From a virus (taxonomy: Duplodnaviria; Heunggongvirae; Uroviricota; Caudoviricetes), in the IMG/VR virus record IMGVR_UViG_2778261087_000007: a stretch of 36,849 nt of DNA, one strand, 5' to 3'. The notes beneath the pieces were generated by a model. The model was given only the letters and a program-made list of their open reading frames with translations, was not told where the DNA came from and did not search any database. Numbering within the stretch: position 1 is the first letter of the stretch; each line of letters opens with the position of its first letter. Positions 26,626 to 32,261 of the stretch are shown here, in pieces. Position numbers and translations under genes: made by a program.

Positions 26626-27053
26626 TGTGATGTTCTCCGGTGTTGTGTCGGCCTGGCGAATGAATTGCGTTGTGGTGAAAAGACCATTTCCGCCAGGGCG
26701 GCCTTGCGATTGACGACATTCAACATTCTGGCCAGCGCTGCGTTGTGTTTGTGTGCCTGTTCTTCGTGGTACTTCTGCATGATTTTCCCTGCAGGTGTGC
26801 ACGGCTCCGACTCCTCCGGCGAACGGCGGGTACGAACTGAGACAATCCAGCTCTTATGTTCATTTCCCGGCCGTCTGTTGAGTATATCTGTAATGGTGGT
26901 TTTCGTGGTGCGGTCAGGATTGACCACTGTGATTTCCAGTTCATCGCCGGGTTGTGGTCTCGTGGCAATGTTGTTCAGAGTCAGTAATGGCGTGCGCTGG
27001 CGCATCATGTTGTCAAAGCGCTGGCGCTGCATGGTGCAGTAAAAACGGGTCAT
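26622..27053 (-). CDS. hypothetical protein downstream of replication gene
   Basis: 143 aa; ATGA overlap with the replication gene stop. Confidence 0.5.
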   Translation of the reverse strand: MTRFYCTMQRQRFDNMMRQRTPLLTLNNIATRPQPGDELEITVVNPDRTTKTTITDILNRRPGNEHKSWIVSVRTRRSPEESEPCTPAGKIMQKYHEEQAHKHNAALARMLNVVNRKAALAEMVFSPQRNSFARPTQHRRTSQ

Positions 27054-29578
27054 TGTGGCCCCTCCGTTTTCTGTGCAGGGTTGAGCTCAATGCGGCGGGT
27101 GTTGTCGTTCCAGTACGCGGTGCGCCCGTCATCCAGGAGAACACGGGCCCCGTTACGCACGGAAATAATGGCTGCGTCAGGCAGTTGTACGCCCAGTGCA
27201 TCGAGTTCGCAGGTGATTTGTGCGGTGATGTGTGGCTCTGCTGTCAGTGCGACATCCACGCGAACGCCGTCAGTGGGCGCACTGATGCCGCCGTTTTTCA
27301 CGGTTTCTGTGTCAGGTGGCGGGTTTTTCAACTGCCGGGTGAGTTGTTTTCTCTGTACCGGTGTCAGCGACCTCAGCCATTCGGTTAAATCACCTTCCGG
27401 CAGGGTAAGTCGTTGCTCCCTGCGTCTGTCCTGTTGCCCTTCTGGCGTGGCATTACTGGTTAAATTCTGGTCATGGGGACAGTTATTGCCACGAGTCCAA
27501 GGGGCGACAAAGTCGCCCTCAACGTCAAAATCAGTTTCGCTGGCGCTGTCTTCACCTTCCGGCTTACGTCTGACCAGTTTCCAGGTGTCCGGATGGGTGC
27601 ATATGGTGTACTGCTCCCCGAGTGACGGTGCACGGACACCGTAAATACGTTGCGGAAATTCGCCGTAGTCGTTGGCCTCTTCGGCGGTTTCGTATGCGGT
27701 GCGGACCAGGTACGTGTTGCGGGGAATGAGTACACCACCCTGCCTGGTGATGTAGGTGGCAAAACATCCCACATCAGCGGCGGCCAGTATGGCGTCAATG
27801 TCTTCATTATCGAGGCGCTGTGGTGCCTTCGGGTTACGGGCTATCTGCCCGGCAAGACGGCGGAGTTCGCGCCATACCTGGCGTGGCGGGATACCGAAGA
27901 ACTGGAACTGGCGGATGCGGTGAAGGGTCGCCCAGCCGATGGCGTTCTCCACGGTTTCTGCCATTGTTTTGCCTGATTCCCTGTCTGCGTATGGTTTGCC
28001 GGTTTTCGGGTCATTCCCCATAAATACGCTGGCGTCCAGGTTCTTACCGATATAGGTCGCGATATAGCTTGCCGGGGTGCCTTTTGCTGGGTCGATTTTT
28101 TCGCATTTAAAACGCGGGGAGATATCATCACCCAGCTCTGCACGGTCCTCCCTGATGGCGGCGTTGCGCATGATTTCAGTGATACGGGCTTCGTTTTCCG
28201 GACTGGTGAATACCAGCATGTGCCAGTGCGGTGTGCCGTCGTGGTGAGGCTCCACGGTGCGTACACCGTACCAGCCCAGCCCGGCTTTGCTGATGGCCTT
28301 GCGGACGGCAGCGAAAAATCTGTAAACCAGGTAATCACTGGCATCGCGTACCGTTGCCCCGCAGAATTTCGGGTTCAGGCTGCCGTCATCGTTCACGCTG
28401 TGAAAACGGGAAGGGGCGGTGACGGTGACGAAAAACGCCACATCGCCGCGCGCTTCGGCGACCTGCTCCATTCCCCGGACGCAGGCCATCATCTCGTTGC
28501 GACGGTTGCGCGGATTGGCGAGTCCGGCCCAGTAGATATCCTCAAGGCTGAACCGCTCTCCCTCTTCGTTCTCGACATCCCAGGCTTTCAGAAAATCGCG
28601 GGTGCGCTGGCGTTTTTCGCGCCAGTCCAGTAACGCTTCATGGCTGATGTATACCGACTCCTTACGTGACACCAGACCTGCGGCGCGTAACAGCTCTTCC
28701 CGCCAGATGTCGCGAAGGTGTCTTAACTGACCGTTCCACCAGTTCGCGCAGGAAAGACGCATGACTGCACCCGGCACCTGTTCCAGGTCGGGGGCGGTGC
28801 GGCGGTCGGGTCTGATTTCCAGCGACGGCCAGCAGGGCGGGGTGACACCCAGTTTTAACGCCATATGTGCCAGCGGCTGGTAGGTCAGCAGCCAGGTGTA
28901 CAGGTCATCATCCCCCTTTCCGGTCCTTTTGATGGCCTCATCACATGCGCGCTCCAGTGCGGCGGAAAATGCGGTGGCGGTCAGGGTGGCAAGGCGCTGA
29001 ATGTCGTCGCGCTCCAGTTGCGGGAGTATCAGGAGTTCATCCAGTCGTTCGCGGGCAGCGGTGGCCTTAAATGCTGTAGTGGCAAACCGTTCATTCACCT
29101 GTCTGATGCGTTTCAGACGGGCGCGCAGCCCGTGGCGAACGAAGTTATCCGCTGCGTATGCGCTGTTGTTCTTAAGTTCTTTCTGACGGGCATCGTCCTG
29201 TTTGCGTCTGAAGAACGCCAGCCTGCGAATCAACGGTCCGGCGAGAAAGGCCGGAAGGGCGCGCAGCTCTGCCATGGCCTCGGATACCAGCGTGGGTGGG
29301 TTATCGCGTCTGTACCTGGCCAGCTTTTCCAGCCGTATCTGCCGCTCTTCGTCGTGATGAAGGTGCGAATTAATCTGCCTGCCTTTTTCTGTGCTTGTCA
29401 GGAAGACGACGGTTTCTTCATCCAGCCGGGCATTAATCCGGATGTCTTCGTTGATGTAGCTCTGAATTGCCCTGCGTAATGCCGTCGGCTTCTGTGGTAA
29501 CGCTCTGCCGAAGGTTTCCGGGTCGATAACGGGCAGTGGAGCGTTCCATGACCAGGCCCATTCGCGGTTGGTGTTCAT
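27050..29578 (-). CDS. rolling-circle replication initiator, gpA-like
   Basis: about 842 aa; HUH-type motif PHWHMLVF and paired tyrosines YIATYIGKN; ATG at 29578 preceded by GGGGAG (track start is GTG at 29587). Confidence 0.85.
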   Translation of the reverse strand: MNTNREWAWSWNAPLPVIDPETFGRALPQKPTALRRAIQSYINEDIRINARLDEETVVFLTSTEKGRQINSHLHHDEERQIRLEKLARYRRDNPPTLVSEAMAELRALPAFLAGPLIRRLAFFRRKQDDARQKELKNNSAYAADNFVRHGLRARLKRIRQVNERFATTAFKATAARERLDELLILPQLERDDIQRLATLTATAFSAALERACDEAIKRTGKGDDDLYTWLLTYQPLAHMALKLGVTPPCWPSLEIRPDRRTAPDLEQVPGAVMRLSCANWWNGQLRHLRDIWREELLRAAGLVSRKESVYISHEALLDWREKRQRTRDFLKAWDVENEEGERFSLEDIYWAGLANPRNRRNEMMACVRGMEQVAEARGDVAFFVTVTAPSRFHSVNDDGSLNPKFCGATVRDASDYLVYRFFAAVRKAISKAGLGWYGVRTVEPHHDGTPHWHMLVFTSPENEARITEIMRNAAIREDRAELGDDISPRFKCEKIDPAKGTPASYIATYIGKNLDASVFMGNDPKTGKPYADRESGKTMAETVENAIGWATLHRIRQFQFFGIPPRQVWRELRRLAGQIARNPKAPQRLDNEDIDAILAAADVGCFATYITRQGGVLIPRNTYLVRTAYETAEEANDYGEFPQRIYGVRAPSLGEQYTICTHPDTWKLVRRKPEGEDSASETDFDVEGDFVAPWTRGNNCPHDQNLTSNATPEGQQDRRREQRLTLPEGDLTEWLRSLTPVQRKQLTRQLKNPPPDTETVKNGGISAPTDGVRVDVALTAEPHITAQITCELDALGVQLPDAAIISVRNGARVLLDDGRTAYWNDNTRRIELNPAQKTEGPQ

Positions 29579-29583
29579 GGCGC

Positions 29584-29997
29584 TCACTCCCCGGCAGTTG
29601 CCCGTTGAAATGCGGCACGGTACAGCACAAGAAGGCGCCGGTATTCGTCAATAAAGCCTTCTGCCGTTTTAATCCCTTTCACTGCCACGCTGTGGGTTGT
29701 CATGTCCAGTACGAGCGCCATTTCTGACGATGACCAACTGATTACGCTGTGGTCGTGCCCGTTGATGTGGAACAGGCCCAGATTCAGGCTGTGATTCAGG
29801 TCTCTGACGTCAACACGGTAACGGTCATCAACGGTGAAGGAGAAATCACCTGATGTGGTGATACTGCTGGCTGCCTGTTTACAGGCGCGGCGGTAATAGT
29901 CATGCCAGTCATTGAGGCGGGAGGCGAGGTGTGGATCCACCGACCACATCCAGTTAAAAAAATCCTGAATATCTGAAAGTTCCTTAACGTTCTTCAT
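29584..29997 (-). CDS. hypothetical protein upstream of replication gene
   Basis: 137-aa ORF whose stop overlaps the replication gene start region. Confidence 0.5.
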   Translation of the reverse strand: MKNVKELSDIQDFFNWMWSVDPHLASRLNDWHDYYRRACKQAASSITTSGDFSFTVDDRYRVDVRDLNHSLNLGLFHINGHDHSVISWSSSEMALVLDMTTHSVAVKGIKTAEGFIDEYRRLLVLYRAAFQRATAGE

Positions 29998-30065
29998 GTG
30001 AACCTCCGGTAACAGACGTGCGGAAGCCTCCCGCGTACGGGTGCGGGATGGCTTCAGGATGTTGT

Positions 30066-30293
30066 TTAGTGGTGGTGTTGCTGGTTGATAAGGTTCTGCA
30101 GTTCCGCGAGATCATCCGCCAGGTAGCTGAAAACAGCGGCACAGTAACGGTTTGACAGGGCGTGAGTGCGCTCATGCAGCATATTGATGTGCATGATTTG
30201 CGCGACGCGTGATGCGCGGAAAAGTCTGCGGTTGATTTCGGTGCGGATGTGAAGGCGCTCAGCGCGGGCGCGCTGTTGTTTGCGGTTTGCCAT
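30066..30293 (-). CDS. small basic hypothetical protein
   Basis: 75 aa, Arg/Lys-rich N-terminus, ATG with GAGG about 9 nt upstream. Confidence 0.45.
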   Translation of the reverse strand: MANRKQQRARAERLHIRTEINRRLFRASRVAQIMHINMLHERTHALSNRYCAAVFSYLADDLAELQNLINQQHHH

Positions 30294-30470
30294 GGTGTGG
30301 CCTCGTATGTAGTAAGTTTTAAAAACTCACCATCCAGAGCTGCGAAACTGTGGGTGGCGAGACGTACGAGGTTCGCAGTACCGGCTACATACGATCCCGG
30401 CCCGACCGAAGTCGGCCCCGTACGCCCCGCCATAATTCTGATGCGAAAAAGACGTGGCAATGCAGTACGC

Positions 30471-30493
30471 ACAAAAAAACCGCTGGCGCGGTT
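30471..30493 (-). terminator. intrinsic terminator downstream of dam
   Basis: On the minus strand: stem accgc/gcggt with 4-nt loop followed by 7 T. Confidence 0.6.
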
Positions 30494-30581
30494 GTGCGCG
30501 TATGTAGTCAGCAGGCTGCGAAACCCGGCACCCGTTTTATAAGGTGCAGCGGGAATGTAACCCGACTGATTACGGCATGGC

Positions 30582-30631
30582 AAGCGGTTTTTTTGTGTGT
30601 GCATGGCGATTACTCAGTCCGGTAGCAGTTC
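30582..30631. repeat. direct repeat copy A (50 bp) spanning the dam stop
   Basis: aagcggtttttttgtgtgtgcatggcgattactcagtccggtagcagttc; identical to copy B except T7 versus T5. Confidence 0.85.
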
Positions 30632-31629
30632 ACGGAGTACGGCATCAGCGGTTGTTCTGCGGTGGAAGAGGTAAACATCGCGCTGTAAGTTGTATCTCCC
30701 GTCACCGTGCCGCAGTCCGGACAGTAGCCGCCGCCATGGCGACCACAGGCGTCGCACTGTCTCAGGGTGGCGATAACCTCCGGTGCTGGTTTTCGGGTTT
30801 TTGCGCCAACGCTTCGCGGTGCCTGGATGCGGTTCATCCGGTAGCCCTGATAAATGCGCCGTGCTTCCGGTGTGTCGGAGCCGGAAATGGTTATGCTGGT
30901 CATTCCACCTGTTTCCTGTGAAAGACGGTCAAGCGCTGCTCTCAGGCGAACGTGTTCGTCCTTCGTGAAGGGTTTTTCGTAGGCGGTGAAATTGTCCCAG
31001 CCACTGAATGACAGGTAAGGGGGATCGCAGTACACGCAAAGCGTACTACCTATGCTGAACAGGTGACTGGCAGTGTTCAGCGTTTTCTGAAAATCGCCAT
31101 GAACAAGCAGTGTTCTGGTGCTGTTTGCCTTGTCTGCAAATGCGCGGATTTCCCGTTCAGGGAAGTAGGGAGCCCGGTAGCCACCGAATGGGACATTAAA
31201 ATCCCCTTTTTCATTCACCCGGTACAGGCCATTAAAGCAGTGCCGGTTGAGGTATAAAAACATGGCGGCCAGCCGTAATTCGCGACGGTCGCTTATTCCC
31301 GTGCTCAGGAATGCATGATTCTCTGCATTAAAGGTGTTACGGATAGCGAGATAGTCAGTCCTGTTATTGTGTTCCAGGAACAGGTCTTTTGCTTCGTTGA
31401 TCAGACAGTCAGTGTTGTCCCGTGCTGCCCGACAGAAATTAATCAGTGCACCATTGGAATCACCCAGGATGTATCGGCTGTAACTGGTGTTCATGAATAC
31501 CGATGCGCCACCCACGAACGGCTCAACCAGGCAGTCCGCTTCTGGCAGATGCGCCTTCAGTGTGTTCATGATGCGGCTTTTCCCGCCCACCCATTTCAGC
31601 GGTGTGCCGGATAACAGTTCTTTGCTCAT
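30610..31629 (-). CDS. dam: DNA adenine methyltransferase (Dam family) with Cys-rich C-terminal extension
   Basis: 339 aa; N-terminal PLKWVGGK, FVGGASVF and catalytic DPPY motifs; C-terminal CDACGRHGGGYCPDCG zinc-ribbon-like segment; good SD AAGAGG. Confidence 0.85.
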   Translation of the reverse strand: MSKELLSGTPLKWVGGKSRIMNTLKAHLPEADCLVEPFVGGASVFMNTSYSRYILGDSNGALINFCRAARDNTDCLINEAKDLFLEHNNRTDYLAIRNTFNAENHAFLSTGISDRRELRLAAMFLYLNRHCFNGLYRVNEKGDFNVPFGGYRAPYFPEREIRAFADKANSTRTLLVHGDFQKTLNTASHLFSIGSTLCVYCDPPYLSFSGWDNFTAYEKPFTKDEHVRLRAALDRLSQETGGMTSITISGSDTPEARRIYQGYRMNRIQAPRSVGAKTRKPAPEVIATLRQCDACGRHGGGYCPDCGTVTGDTTYSAMFTSSTAEQPLMPYSVNCYRTE

Positions 31630-31676
31630 AACGCGGCCTCTTTGTTACAGGTTTCGTGTGTCAACAAATCCCATGA

Positions 31677-31724
31677 AAGCGGTTTTTGTGTGTGCATGGC
31701 GATTACTCAGTCCGGTAGCAGTTC
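31677..31724. repeat. direct repeat copy B (48 bp) spanning the stop of the gene upstream of dam
   Basis: Same sequence as copy A with a 2-nt shorter T-run. Confidence 0.85.
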
Positions 31725-32261
31725 GTACAGCACAATGTCGTCGGCAGTGCGGCGGCGACTGTAAAGAAGATATGCTGTGTTAGTGGTCGCTTTTATTTGC
31801 AGTGTGTGATTGATGTGTTTTGCTATCGCGGCGAATGTCATACACTGTTCATCACGTAGTTCTGTTACCAGTTCCACCAGGCGATCGCTGTATCTGGTCA
31901 GGTGGTGCAGATCTCCGCATTTCTGCAGTCTGTAACCACGTTTACTCAGGTGTTCCTGTACTGTGCGACGGGTACATCCCACCATGACTGCCATTTCCTG
32001 CGCTGTTCTGGTGTGACGGTTTCTGATGAGAAAATTGATTTCTTCTCTGCTCAGCGTCTTTCTCTTGCGACCAATTAATCCACGATCACGTAAAACACGA
32101 ATTCTGTGCATAACTGCGCTGCGGGTGCGTTGAATTCGTTCAGCCATCTGGTATGTGCTGTTTTCCTGATAAAGCGAGGTAAGCATCTCGTCTTCCTGCC
32201 GTGTCCATGGTTTCACGTGCGCAGGGGCTTTGCCTGGTATCCCCATTGGTTGAAGTATCAT
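31707..32261 (-). CDS. putative DNA-binding protein with repeated HTH-like segments
   Basis: 184 aa; three segments of pattern W..E(D/E)..L...... followed by R/K-rich helix (KPWTRQEDEMLTSLY..., LSREEINFLIRNRH..., TRYSDRLVELVTEL...). Confidence 0.45.
   Translation of the reverse strand: MILQPMGIPGKAPAHVKPWTRQEDEMLTSLYQENSTYQMAERIQRTRSAVMHRIRVLRDRGLIGRKRKTLSREEINFLIRNRHTRTAQEMAVMVGCTRRTVQEHLSKRGYRLQKCGDLHHLTRYSDRLVELVTELRDEQCMTFAAIAKHINHTLQIKATTNTAYLLYSRRRTADDIVLYELLPD

What the first reader, a model, noticed from the sequence alone, without database searches (positions are those of the whole stretch)
30582..31724. dam gene bracketed by 48-50 bp direct repeats
The last codons and 3' flank of dam are identical to those of the gene just upstream, differing only in T-run length. 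The two genes thus end with the same nucleotide sequence in different reading frames. This suggests dam was inserted or exchanged by recombination and could be lost by repeat-mediated deletion.
Basis: seen in the sequence. Interest (0 to 1): 0.6.

Follow-up and report, generated by a model that had tools for sequence, protein, structure and literature searches.

The report
Recombination scar flanking prophage dam
A DNA-methylase gene was spliced into a P2-like E. coli prophage at a conserved gene junction, which left that junction duplicated on both sides; this is an ordinary example of how phage genomes become mosaics.

Summary
The repeat is real. Window 30582-30631 (50 nt) and 31677-31724 (48 nt) are identical except for a T7/T5 run, and no other repeat in the window comes close. 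All genes here are on the minus strand.

The repeated unit, J, comprises:
- the last 6 codons and stop of a 184-aa HTH DNA-binding gene;
- the 31-nt spacer;
- the first 2 nt of the -35 box of the isrK sRNA promoter.

Fifteen relatives, including L019 with an identical HTH protein and the same J variant, read HTH-J-isrK/C4-derepression-gpA, with one J and no dam.

In the window, a ~1.03-kb cassette sits between two J copies. It holds the last 16 codons of a ParE-like gene plus dam without its native stop. The downstream J is preceded by a relic of a different HTH allele. Dam reads through this relic in another frame, gaining a ~16-aa tail.

So dam was inserted by illegitimate plus homologous recombination, not by transposition. 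The two copies have different ancestry: three sister prophages keep 4 mismatches between them.

No clean deletion derivative was found, so loss by repeat-mediated deletion is plausible but unshown. This is ordinary phage mosaicism and of low interest.

The parts
31707..32261 (-). 184-aa HTH DNA-binding protein gene of the early operon. Its last 6 codons and stop lie in repeat copy 2.
   Evidence: ORF. Pfam HTH_11 and other HTH families. phrog_323 transcriptional regulator. Belongs to a family of E. coli prophage 'DNA-binding protein' genes.
31677..31724 (-). Repeat copy 2 (J, A5 variant). It holds the HTH gene end plus spacer and is joined at CCGCTT|TCATGG to the dam cassette. The isrK -35 box is destroyed here.
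31626..31676 (-). Relic of the 3' end of a ParE-like gene (SWDLLTHETCNKEAAL*). Its stop overlaps the dam ATG (ATGA). This is the upstream edge of the inserted cassette.
   Evidence: Homology to L003 and L034, where an intact ParE-like gene overlaps dam.
31626..31697 (-). Chimeric 23-codon ORF (MHTQKPLSWDLLTHETCNKEAAL*). J's ATG is fused in frame to the ParE-like relic, and this works only with the A5 run. Whether it is expressed is unknown.
30610..31629 (-). dam, a D12-class N6-adenine DNA methyltransferase of 339 aa. Residues ~1-322 are native. The last ~16 aa are read from the HTH-allele relic in another frame.
   Evidence: Pfam PF02086, E=7e-51. E. coli Dam structure 2g1p, E=4e-50. Native relatives are 324-326 aa.
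30614..30661 (-). Relic of the last ~16 codons and stop of a different HTH allele (L004-like; RRTTADAVLRELLPD*). It is out of frame with dam. The cassette's downstream breakpoint lies within ~30647-30662.
30582..30631 (-). Repeat copy 1 (J, A7 variant). It holds the relic end plus spacer and runs into the -35 box of the isrK promoter.
30554..30583 (-). Predicted isrK promoter (TTGCCA, 18-nt spacer, TACATT). The predicted start coincides with the first base of the isrK match.
   Evidence: This is a consensus match only.
30473..30547 (-). isrK sRNA with its intrinsic terminator.
   Evidence: Rfam RF01394, 62.8 bits against a gathering score of 50. Terminator.
30350..30437 (-). C4-type antisense RNA.
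   Evidence: Rfam RF01695, 79.8 bits against a gathering score of 45.
30066..30293 (-). 75-aa protein that relatives annotate as a derepression protein (PF25738).
27050..29587 (-). gpA-type replication endonuclease. It marks the element as P2-like.
   Evidence: Pfam PF05840, E=2e-106.

Best explanation
The window is the early operon of a P2-like (Peduoviridae, Xuanwuvirus-like) E. coli prophage. The standard gene order in this group is HTH gene - J - isrK - C4 - derepression protein - gpA.

A foreign segment of ~1.03 kb now lies in the J junction. It runs from the last 51 nt of a ParE-like gene through dam to just before dam's stop codon. It came from a phage in which the order is exonuclease - ParE-like gene - dam.

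Two joins are illegitimate, with no or minimal microhomology:
- CCGCTT|TCATGG, which cuts the -35 box of the isrK promoter;
- the dam end joined to about codon -16 of an HTH-gene allele.

As a result J is present on both sides of dam. The downstream J still carries ~48 nt of an L004-like HTH allele. Dam now reads across that relic in the +1 frame, which is why the two genes end with the same nucleotides in different frames.

The most likely route (inferred) is non-allelic recombination between two related phages. One parent supplied HTH-J and the other supplied dam~relic-J'-isrK. A Campbell-type insertion of a looped-out dam~relic-J' circle through homologous J sequences is topologically equivalent. 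A short patch exchange or gene conversion then made the two copies identical in this lineage.

dam has no promoter or terminator of its own, so it is presumably transcribed with the early operon. It keeps its Shine-Dalgarno sequence (AAAGAGG). The encoded enzyme looks like an active Dam-type methylase.

The 48-nt direct repeats could in principle mediate precise loss of dam and restore HTH-J-isrK.
For: Shown:
- The repeat and the frames.
- Single-J, dam-less relatives in several lineages: L004, L006-L012, L019, L038.
- Both window flanks map onto one 50-nt stretch of L006.
- L019 has the identical HTH protein, the same J variant, and a 99.4% identical left arm that ends exactly at 31677.
- Upstream scar: 31626-31676 is the 3' end of the ParE-like gene that overlaps dam in L003 and L034.
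- Downstream scar: dam homology to L002 and L034 ends at 30663 and 30650. Native Dams end MFTPAST* or MFTSAHP*. Homology to the L004 HTH gene end runs to 30661.
- The 339-aa Dam forms a single 90% cluster found only in this architecture. The nearest other Dams are 324-326 aa.
- Different ancestry of the copies: the sequence 5' of GAACTG is L006-like at copy 2 and L004-like at copy 1.
- L016, L021 and L022 keep 4/48 mismatches. Their downstream J matches the variant of L002, where dam is already linked upstream of a relic-J'-isrK.
- J is a module boundary. In 36 of the 40 E. coli genome records shown (a spread sample of 1081), homology to the isrK block stops at window 30597-30605, inside the repeat.
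- No promoter-like or terminator-like site lies between HTH, dam and isrK.
- Dam matches PF02086 and E. coli Dam with DPPY intact.
Against: - The exact order of events is not resolved.
- No donor parent was found that carries the dam|relic joint without the upstream HTH-J joint. The metagenome and viral scans returned only the same phage.
- Which downstream J is ancestral, the identical type or the 4-mismatch type, is inferred from the diversity of its carriers, not proven.
- Four of the eight clustered differences (30644, 30638, 30572, 30541) lie outside the copy-2 homology. Intragenomic conversion alone therefore does not explain the patch.
- No clean deletion derivative was seen.
- Transcription, translation and methylase specificity are untested.
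Confidence: 0.8

Rival explanations
1. One-step cassette insertion with a long target duplication. Under this model, replication template-switching copied HTH-J, jumped to a donor upstream of dam, and jumped back ~81 nt behind in the recipient. This made two initially identical copies of [HTH end + J]. The left arm was later replaced by homologous recombination, with a crossover in copy 2.
For: The two copies share the variant GAGTAATCGCCATG. Apart from L019, which has the same left arm, none of the sampled dam-less relatives has it. Patchy similarity to both parents around 30647-30662 (TTTAC/AACC) fits microhomology-guided switching.
Against: This model needs an extra exchange to explain why the 30 nt 5' of GAACTG are only ~55% alike between the copies, with a 3-nt length difference. 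Sister prophages have a downstream J of the L002 type. That is more simply explained if the downstream J arrived together with dam.
Confidence: 0.2
2. dam and both repeats are ancestral, and the single-copy relatives arose from this arrangement by repeat-mediated deletion.
For: A crossover in the shared CATGCACACACAAAAA segment of an L016-type phage would give exactly L019's J: the copy-2 variant with A7 and GCCGCAATCAG downstream.
Against: HTH-J-isrK without dam occurs across HTH alleles of 62-85% identity and in a Citrobacter phage. The dam architecture, by contrast, is confined to one tight cluster. The ParE-like and HTH-allele relics are insertion scars. L019's right arm is only ~83% identical to any dam-bearing relative.
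Confidence: 0.07
3. The repeat is kept identical because J is a functional element needed upstream of both dam and isrK. It might act as an UP-element-like A-tract, as an RNA segment that pairs with the isrK terminator to allow read-through, or as a translational coupling signal.
For: J is 21 nt and 90% complementary to the 3' half and U-tract of the isrK terminator, and the MFE fold pairs them with z=-3.4. An A-tract lies just upstream of the predicted -35 box. The A5 run creates a leader ORF that ends at dam's ATG.
Against: Both arms are invariant in relatives, so there is no covariation. Lambdoid isrK loci have no such upstream element beyond shuffled expectation. Sister prophages tolerate 4 mismatches and L033 tolerates a point change in copy 2. 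Copy 2 lacks the promoter.
Confidence: 0.1
4. The repeat is a transposition-type target-site duplication, a chance match or an assembly artefact.
For: None beyond the presence of flanking direct repeats.
Against: No transposase or terminal inverted repeats are present. Duplications of 48-81 nt are far longer than the target-site duplications I know of (general knowledge, not tested here). The copies differ in ancestry. The expected number of chance repeat pairs is ~3.5e-17. The architecture is reproduced in more than 20 independent assemblies.
Confidence: 0.01

Closest known systems
Mosaic joints in temperate phage genomes. Illegitimate recombination inserts foreign genes, and homologous recombination at short conserved module-boundary sequences reshuffles them. 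This is the Hendrix/Hatfull modular-evolution picture and includes the boundary sequences of lambdoid phages. Cited from general knowledge.
   Same: A foreign gene lies between conserved modules. The novel joints fall at or inside gene ends with little microhomology. A short conserved junction (J) is shared by otherwise diverged phages, and left and right arms are exchanged exactly there (L019 versus the window).
   Different: Here the boundary sequence ended up duplicated on both sides of the insert. One join fuses the inserted gene to an out-of-frame relic, which gives the inserted gene a new C-terminal tail.
Morons (independently transcribed extra genes in phage genomes). Definition taken from general knowledge.
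   Same: dam is an accessory gene that is absent from close relatives and sits between two conserved genes.
   Different: No promoter-like or terminator-like site of its own was found. It appears to be an in-operon insertion, not a self-contained transcription unit.
Orphan Dam-type (D12 class) methyltransferases of enterobacterial phages and E. coli Dam (PDB 2g1p).
   Same: PF02086 match. Alignment to E. coli Dam over residues 11-288 with DPPY and the N-terminal FxGxG-type motif.
   Different: It has a C-terminal CxxC...CxxC extension shared with other P2-like phage Dams, plus a lineage-specific ~16-aa tail derived from an out-of-frame HTH relic. Specificity is untested.
The isrK / STnc1160 (C4-like) / anti-repressor module of Gifsy-1 (PMC4825925).
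   Same: isrK and C4-type RNAs above Rfam gathering scores, followed by a small derepression protein.
   Different: Here the module sits in a P2-like early operon upstream of gpA. Its left boundary is the J sequence, which lambdoid isrK loci lack.

Membership tests
D12-class N6-adenine DNA methyltransferase (Dam family) | Match to Pfam PF02086 above the curated cut-off | tested here: met
   173.8 bits against a cut-off of 22, E=7e-51, residues 13-270.
D12-class N6-adenine DNA methyltransferase (Dam family) | Catalytic DPPY motif and N-terminal AdoMet-binding FxGxG-type motif | tested here: met
   VYCDPPYLSF and EPFVGGASVF are present and align with E. coli Dam 2g1p, E=4e-50.
D12-class N6-adenine DNA methyltransferase (Dam family) | Methylation of GATC | not testable with these tools
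   Needs methylome sequencing or a DpnI/DpnII/MboI digestion assay.
Transposon or IS insertion with target-site duplication | Transposase gene and/or terminal inverted repeats, with short identical duplications made at insertion | tested here: not met
   The cassette holds only dam and a gene relic. No inverted repeats lie at its ends. The flanks of the two copies derive from different alleles.
Moron (autonomous accessory transcription unit) | Own promoter upstream and terminator downstream of the inserted gene | tested here: not met
   The consensus scan finds neither between 30610 and 31724. The join in copy 2 destroys the isrK -35 box. This is a pattern scan only.
Conserved module-boundary sequence used for homologous exchange | The same short sequence at the border of a module in phages whose flanks are otherwise unrelated or diverged | tested here: met
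   CATGCACACACAAAAAAACCGCTTGCC precedes isrK behind different upstream genes in P88-like phages, L002 and L003. In 36 of the 40 E. coli records shown (of 1081), homology ends at window 30597-30605. L019 and the window share the left arm and diverge right after J.
isrK (RF01394) and C4 antisense RNA (RF01695) | Covariance-model score above the Rfam gathering threshold | tested here: met
   62.8 bits against 50, and 79.8 bits against 45, both full-length matches.
Repeat-mediated deletion substrate | Observed deletion products with one hybrid repeat | tested here: inconclusive
   Only L019 lacks dam among the contigs with the identical HTH protein, and its right arm differs. No complete E. coli genome carries the architecture at all. 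A test needs PCR or deep sequencing of a lysogen.

The most novel reading that the evidence does not exclude
J may be more than a scar. It could be a dual-purpose element of P2-like phages. At the DNA level it would serve as a conserved recombination linker where accessory genes such as dam are swapped in and out. At the RNA level, transcripts coming from the early operon carry J, whereas those starting at the isrK promoter do not. In the early-operon transcripts J could pair with the 3' half and U-tract of the isrK terminator, so that they read through into C4 and the derepression gene. Termination would then depend on which promoter fired. The A5 variant upstream of dam would additionally provide a leader ORF coupled to dam.
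Probability: 0.1. Interest if true: 0.5.

Novelty: new member of a known kind. Interest (0 to 1): 0.2.

Why it matters
This is a clean, fully dissected example of how an accessory methylase gene enters a phage operon. Both illegitimate joints, the relics of the two parental contexts, the duplicated boundary sequence and single-copy relatives can all be identified. It also shows that one joint can remodel a protein's C-terminus.

It adds nothing conceptually new to phage mosaicism. Its practical value is for annotation:
- The Dam tail and the small ORFs here are recombination products.
- The so-called Ash-family ORF that starts in the repeat overlaps two RNA genes.

It also offers a natural substrate for measuring short-repeat deletion in a prophage.

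Tried and rejected
1. J as an intrinsic terminator duplicated with each gene. The scan found no terminator-like site in either copy on either strand.

2. J pairing with the isrK terminator as a conserved RNA structure. The MFE fold predicts it. However, both arms are invariant in all P2-like relatives, and no equivalent element exists upstream of lambdoid isrK genes beyond shuffled controls. I kept this only as a low-probability reading.

3. Transposition or target-site duplication. Rejected: no transposase or inverted repeats, and the copies differ in ancestry.

4. A search for a clean deletion derivative. Exact-protein look-ups of HTH and Dam gave only L019 without dam, and its right arm is ~83% identical.

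5. A search for the donor parent carrying the dam|relic joint alone. Pattern scans of metagenome and viral contigs returned only the same phage.

6. Whether L002's 68-aa gene next to J is a diverged HTH fragment. There is no protein similarity. Only its last ~30 nt and its 3' flank resemble HTH gene ends.

7. E. coli complete genomes. None contains the architecture, so they could not be used to count deletion variants.

8. Intragenomic gene conversion as the sole cause of the identity between copies. It does not explain the four clustered differences outside the homologous part.

Full report
**Observation**

Copy 1 is 30582-30631 (50 nt) and copy 2 is 31677-31724 (48 nt). The two are identical except that the + strand T-run is T7 in copy 1 and T5 in copy 2. 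Weaker similarity continues to 30662/31755 (79% over 73 nt). Nothing else in the 36.8-kb window comes near it: the next direct repeats are 20-32-nt imperfect matches, and the chance expectation for an exact 42-mer pair is ~3.5e-17.

All genes in this region are on the minus strand:
- an HTH DNA-binding protein gene at 31707-32261, ending ...YELLPD-TGA;
- a D12-class dam at 30610-31629, ending ...NCYRTE-TAA.

The two stop codons lie 4 nt apart in the repeat unit and are in different frames. The same two copies, with the same spacing and the same A5/A7 difference, recur in 21 independent loci from E. coli assemblies. A 22nd locus, L033, has one point change in copy 2. They also recur in IMG/VR and metagenome contigs. 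The repeat is therefore not an assembly artefact.

**Context**

The window is the early region of a P2-like prophage of E. coli. It contains a gpA replication endonuclease (PF05840) and DUF4754/DUF4761 early genes. It resembles Xuanwuvirus P88-like phages.

Directly downstream of dam lie full-length Rfam matches to isrK (30473-30547) and C4 antisense RNA (30350-30437). These are followed by a 75-aa protein that relatives annotate as a derepression protein (PF25738), then a 137-aa protein and gpA. The isrK/C4-like/anti-repressor arrangement is a characterised module in Gifsy-1 (PMC4825925).

A sigma-70-like promoter is predicted at TTGCCA (30583-30578), 18-nt spacer, TACATT. It places the transcription start at the first base of the isrK match.

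The repeated unit, which I call J, therefore consists of:
- the last six codons and stop of the HTH gene;
- a 31-nt spacer containing an A-run;
- the first two bases of the isrK -35 hexamer.

**Relatives**

The proposed test was to find relatives that lack dam and have one repeat copy. It is positive many times over.

- L004, L006-L012 and the Citrobacter phage L038 carry HTH homologues. By protein comparison, the HTH proteins of L006-L012 are 75-85% identical to the window's. All are followed directly by one J, then isrK/C4, the derepression gene and gpA.
- Against L006, the window segments ...->31677 and 30631->... both map onto the same 50-nt stretch, L006 4538-4587.
- L019 is the closest case. 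It encodes the identical HTH protein and is 99.4% identical to the window from 34500 to exactly 31677. It carries one J of the window's own variant (GAGTAATCGCCATG, A7) and has no dam. Its right arm is only ~83% identical to any dam-bearing relative, so J is itself a mosaic joint.
- In 36 of the 40 E. coli genome records shown (a spread sample of 1081), homology to the isrK block ends at window 30597-30605, inside the repeat. P88-like phages share only CATGCACACACAAAAAAACCGCTTGCC, behind an unrelated upstream gene.
- J is therefore made of two parts: an HTH-specific part, and the conserved left boundary of the isrK module.

**Anatomy of the insertion**

*Upstream side.* Copy 2 ends at CCGCTT and is joined to TCATGGGATTTG.... 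The 51 nt at 31626-31676 are the 3' end of a ParE-like gene (SWDLLTHETCNKEAAL*). In L003 and L034 this gene is intact and overlaps dam's ATG as ATGA. There is at most 1 nt of microhomology at the join, and the join replaces GCCA of the isrK -35 box.

*Downstream side.* Homology to native dam genes ends at 30663 (L002, 91%) or 30650 (L034, 88%). Those genes stop a few codons later, with MFTPAST* and MFTSAHP*. Homology to the 3' end of the L004 HTH gene runs up to 30661. In the +1 frame the sequence reads RRTTADAVLRELLPD*, against RRTAADAVLRELLPD* in L004 and RRRTADDIVLYELLPD* in the resident HTH gene. The breakpoint lies within ~30647-30662, where the sequence is patchily similar to both parents.

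*Consequence for Dam.* dam has lost its own stop codon and reads ~16 extra codons through an out-of-frame relic of another HTH allele. The resulting 339-aa protein forms a single 90%-identity cluster and was found only in this architecture. The nearest other Dams are 324-326 aa.

**Origin**

The two copies do not share a simple common origin. Immediately 5' of GAACTG, copy 2 is identical to the L006-type allele and copy 1 is L004-like. The two are ~55% identical over 30 nt and differ in length by 3 nt.

Three sister prophages (L016, L021, L022) have the same architecture and spacing, but their downstream J differs from the upstream J at 4 of 48 positions. That downstream variant (GAACTGTTACCGGACTGAGTGATCATCATG) is, bar one base, the J of L002. 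In L002, dam, two small genes and a relic already precede isrK.

The window differs from these sisters by a tight cluster of eight substitutions at 30541-30644. Four of them lie outside the part that is homologous to copy 2.

I infer the following route:
1. One parent supplied ...HTH-J (L019-like).
2. The other parent supplied ParE-like-dam~relic-J'-isrK....
3. They were joined by non-allelic recombination. Integration of a looped-out circle through J is topologically equivalent.
4. A short patch exchange or conversion later made the copies identical in the window's lineage.

A one-step template-switch insertion with an ~81-nt duplication, followed by exchange of the left arm, remains possible. 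No donor parent carrying the dam|relic joint alone was found.

The reverse polarity, with dam ancestral and the single-copy forms arising by deletion, is unlikely for the group as a whole. The single-J order spans diverged HTH alleles and a Citrobacter phage, whereas the dam architecture is confined to one tight cluster that carries two insertion scars.

**Function and consequences**

Dam matches PF02086 (E=7e-51). It aligns with E. coli Dam (2g1p, E=4e-50) over residues 11-288, with DPPY and the N-terminal glycine motif intact. It is presumably an active Dam-type enzyme, but its specificity is untested.

No promoter-like or terminator-like site separates HTH, dam and isrK. dam is therefore best read as an in-operon insertion that keeps its own Shine-Dalgarno sequence (AAAGAGG), not as a classical moron.

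Direct repeats of 48 nt lying 1.09 kb apart are a plausible substrate for precise deletion. This rests on general knowledge of short-homology recombination. I found no natural product. Among 24 contigs with this exact HTH and 24 with this exact Dam, only L019 lacks dam, and it differs on the right arm.

**Side readings**

J (GCACACACAAAAAAACCGCU) is 90% complementary over 21 nt to the 3' half and U-tract of the isrK terminator. The MFE fold of a read-through RNA pairs the two, with z=-3.4. Both arms are invariant, so covariation cannot be assessed. Lambdoid isrK loci show no such element.

The A5 run of copy 2 is fixed in all the loci tabulated. It puts J's ATG in frame with the ParE-like relic, giving a 23-codon ORF whose stop overlaps dam's ATG. 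A6 or A7 would not do this. That could reflect selection for translational coupling, or it could be a 1-in-3 coincidence.

**Verdict**

The feature is a recombination scar of a well-known kind, dissected here in some detail. The perfect identity of the copies is specific to this lineage. Interest is low (0.2). It is a new member of a known kind.

Noticed in passing
window 29984-30604 (-): A 206-aa ORF starts at the ATG inside repeat copy 1 and runs through the isrK and C4 RNA genes on the same strand. Databases annotate it as 'Ash family protein' or 'transcriptional regulator'. Its PHROG hits (aa 4-113) cover the stretch that encodes the two RNAs, which may mean that some protein families are built on translated RNA genes.
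   Followed up: partly
window 30584-30603 versus 30467-30487: J is 21 nt and 90% complementary to the 3' half and U-tract of the isrK terminator. The MFE fold of a read-through transcript pairs them in place of the terminator hairpin (z=-3.4). The arms are invariant in relatives, and the element is absent from lambdoid isrK loci.
   Followed up: partly
window 31626-31697 (-): The A5 run in copy 2 (A7 in copy 1) is fixed in all 21 loci tabulated. It creates a 23-codon chimeric ORF, MHTQKPLSWDLLTHETCNKEAAL*, whose TGA overlaps dam's ATG. A6 or A7 would terminate earlier.
   Followed up: partly
window 30350-30547 and 30066-30293 (-): An isrK + C4 RNA + derepression-protein module sits between the early genes and gpA in this P2-like prophage. 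Sequences similar to this block occur in 1080 of 5426 complete E. coli genomes, and isrK-like sequences occur in many Stx-converting lambdoid phages.
   Followed up: partly
window 30606-30612; L016, L002 and L006 J variants: The J variants of L016, L002 and L006 contain a Dam site (GAGTGATCATC or GAGCGATCATC) about 60 nt upstream of the isrK start. The window's variant (GAGTAATCGCC) has none in either copy.
   Followed up: no
window ~30690-30760 (-), Dam residues ~290-320: Dam carries a C-terminal CDACGRHGGGYCPDCG (CxxC...CxxC) zinc-ribbon-like extension. It is shared with the 324-326-aa Dams of related phages and hits PHROG 'exonuclease' families (phrog_20376, phrog_2082). L003's 314-aa Dam lacks homology to this part.
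   Followed up: no
window 29500-30000 (137-aa gene, 29584-29997): L016, L021 and L022 differ from the window by 44 substitutions in these 500 nt, against ~1% elsewhere. This is a second mosaic patch in the same operon.
   Followed up: no
L002 3829-3860 (-): In E. coli JNEC-KY174 an unrelated 68-aa gene ends within sequence that resembles HTH gene ends. About 20 nt of non-coding HTH-end relic follow, then J. Insertions at this junction have therefore left HTH 3'-end relics more than once.
   Followed up: partly
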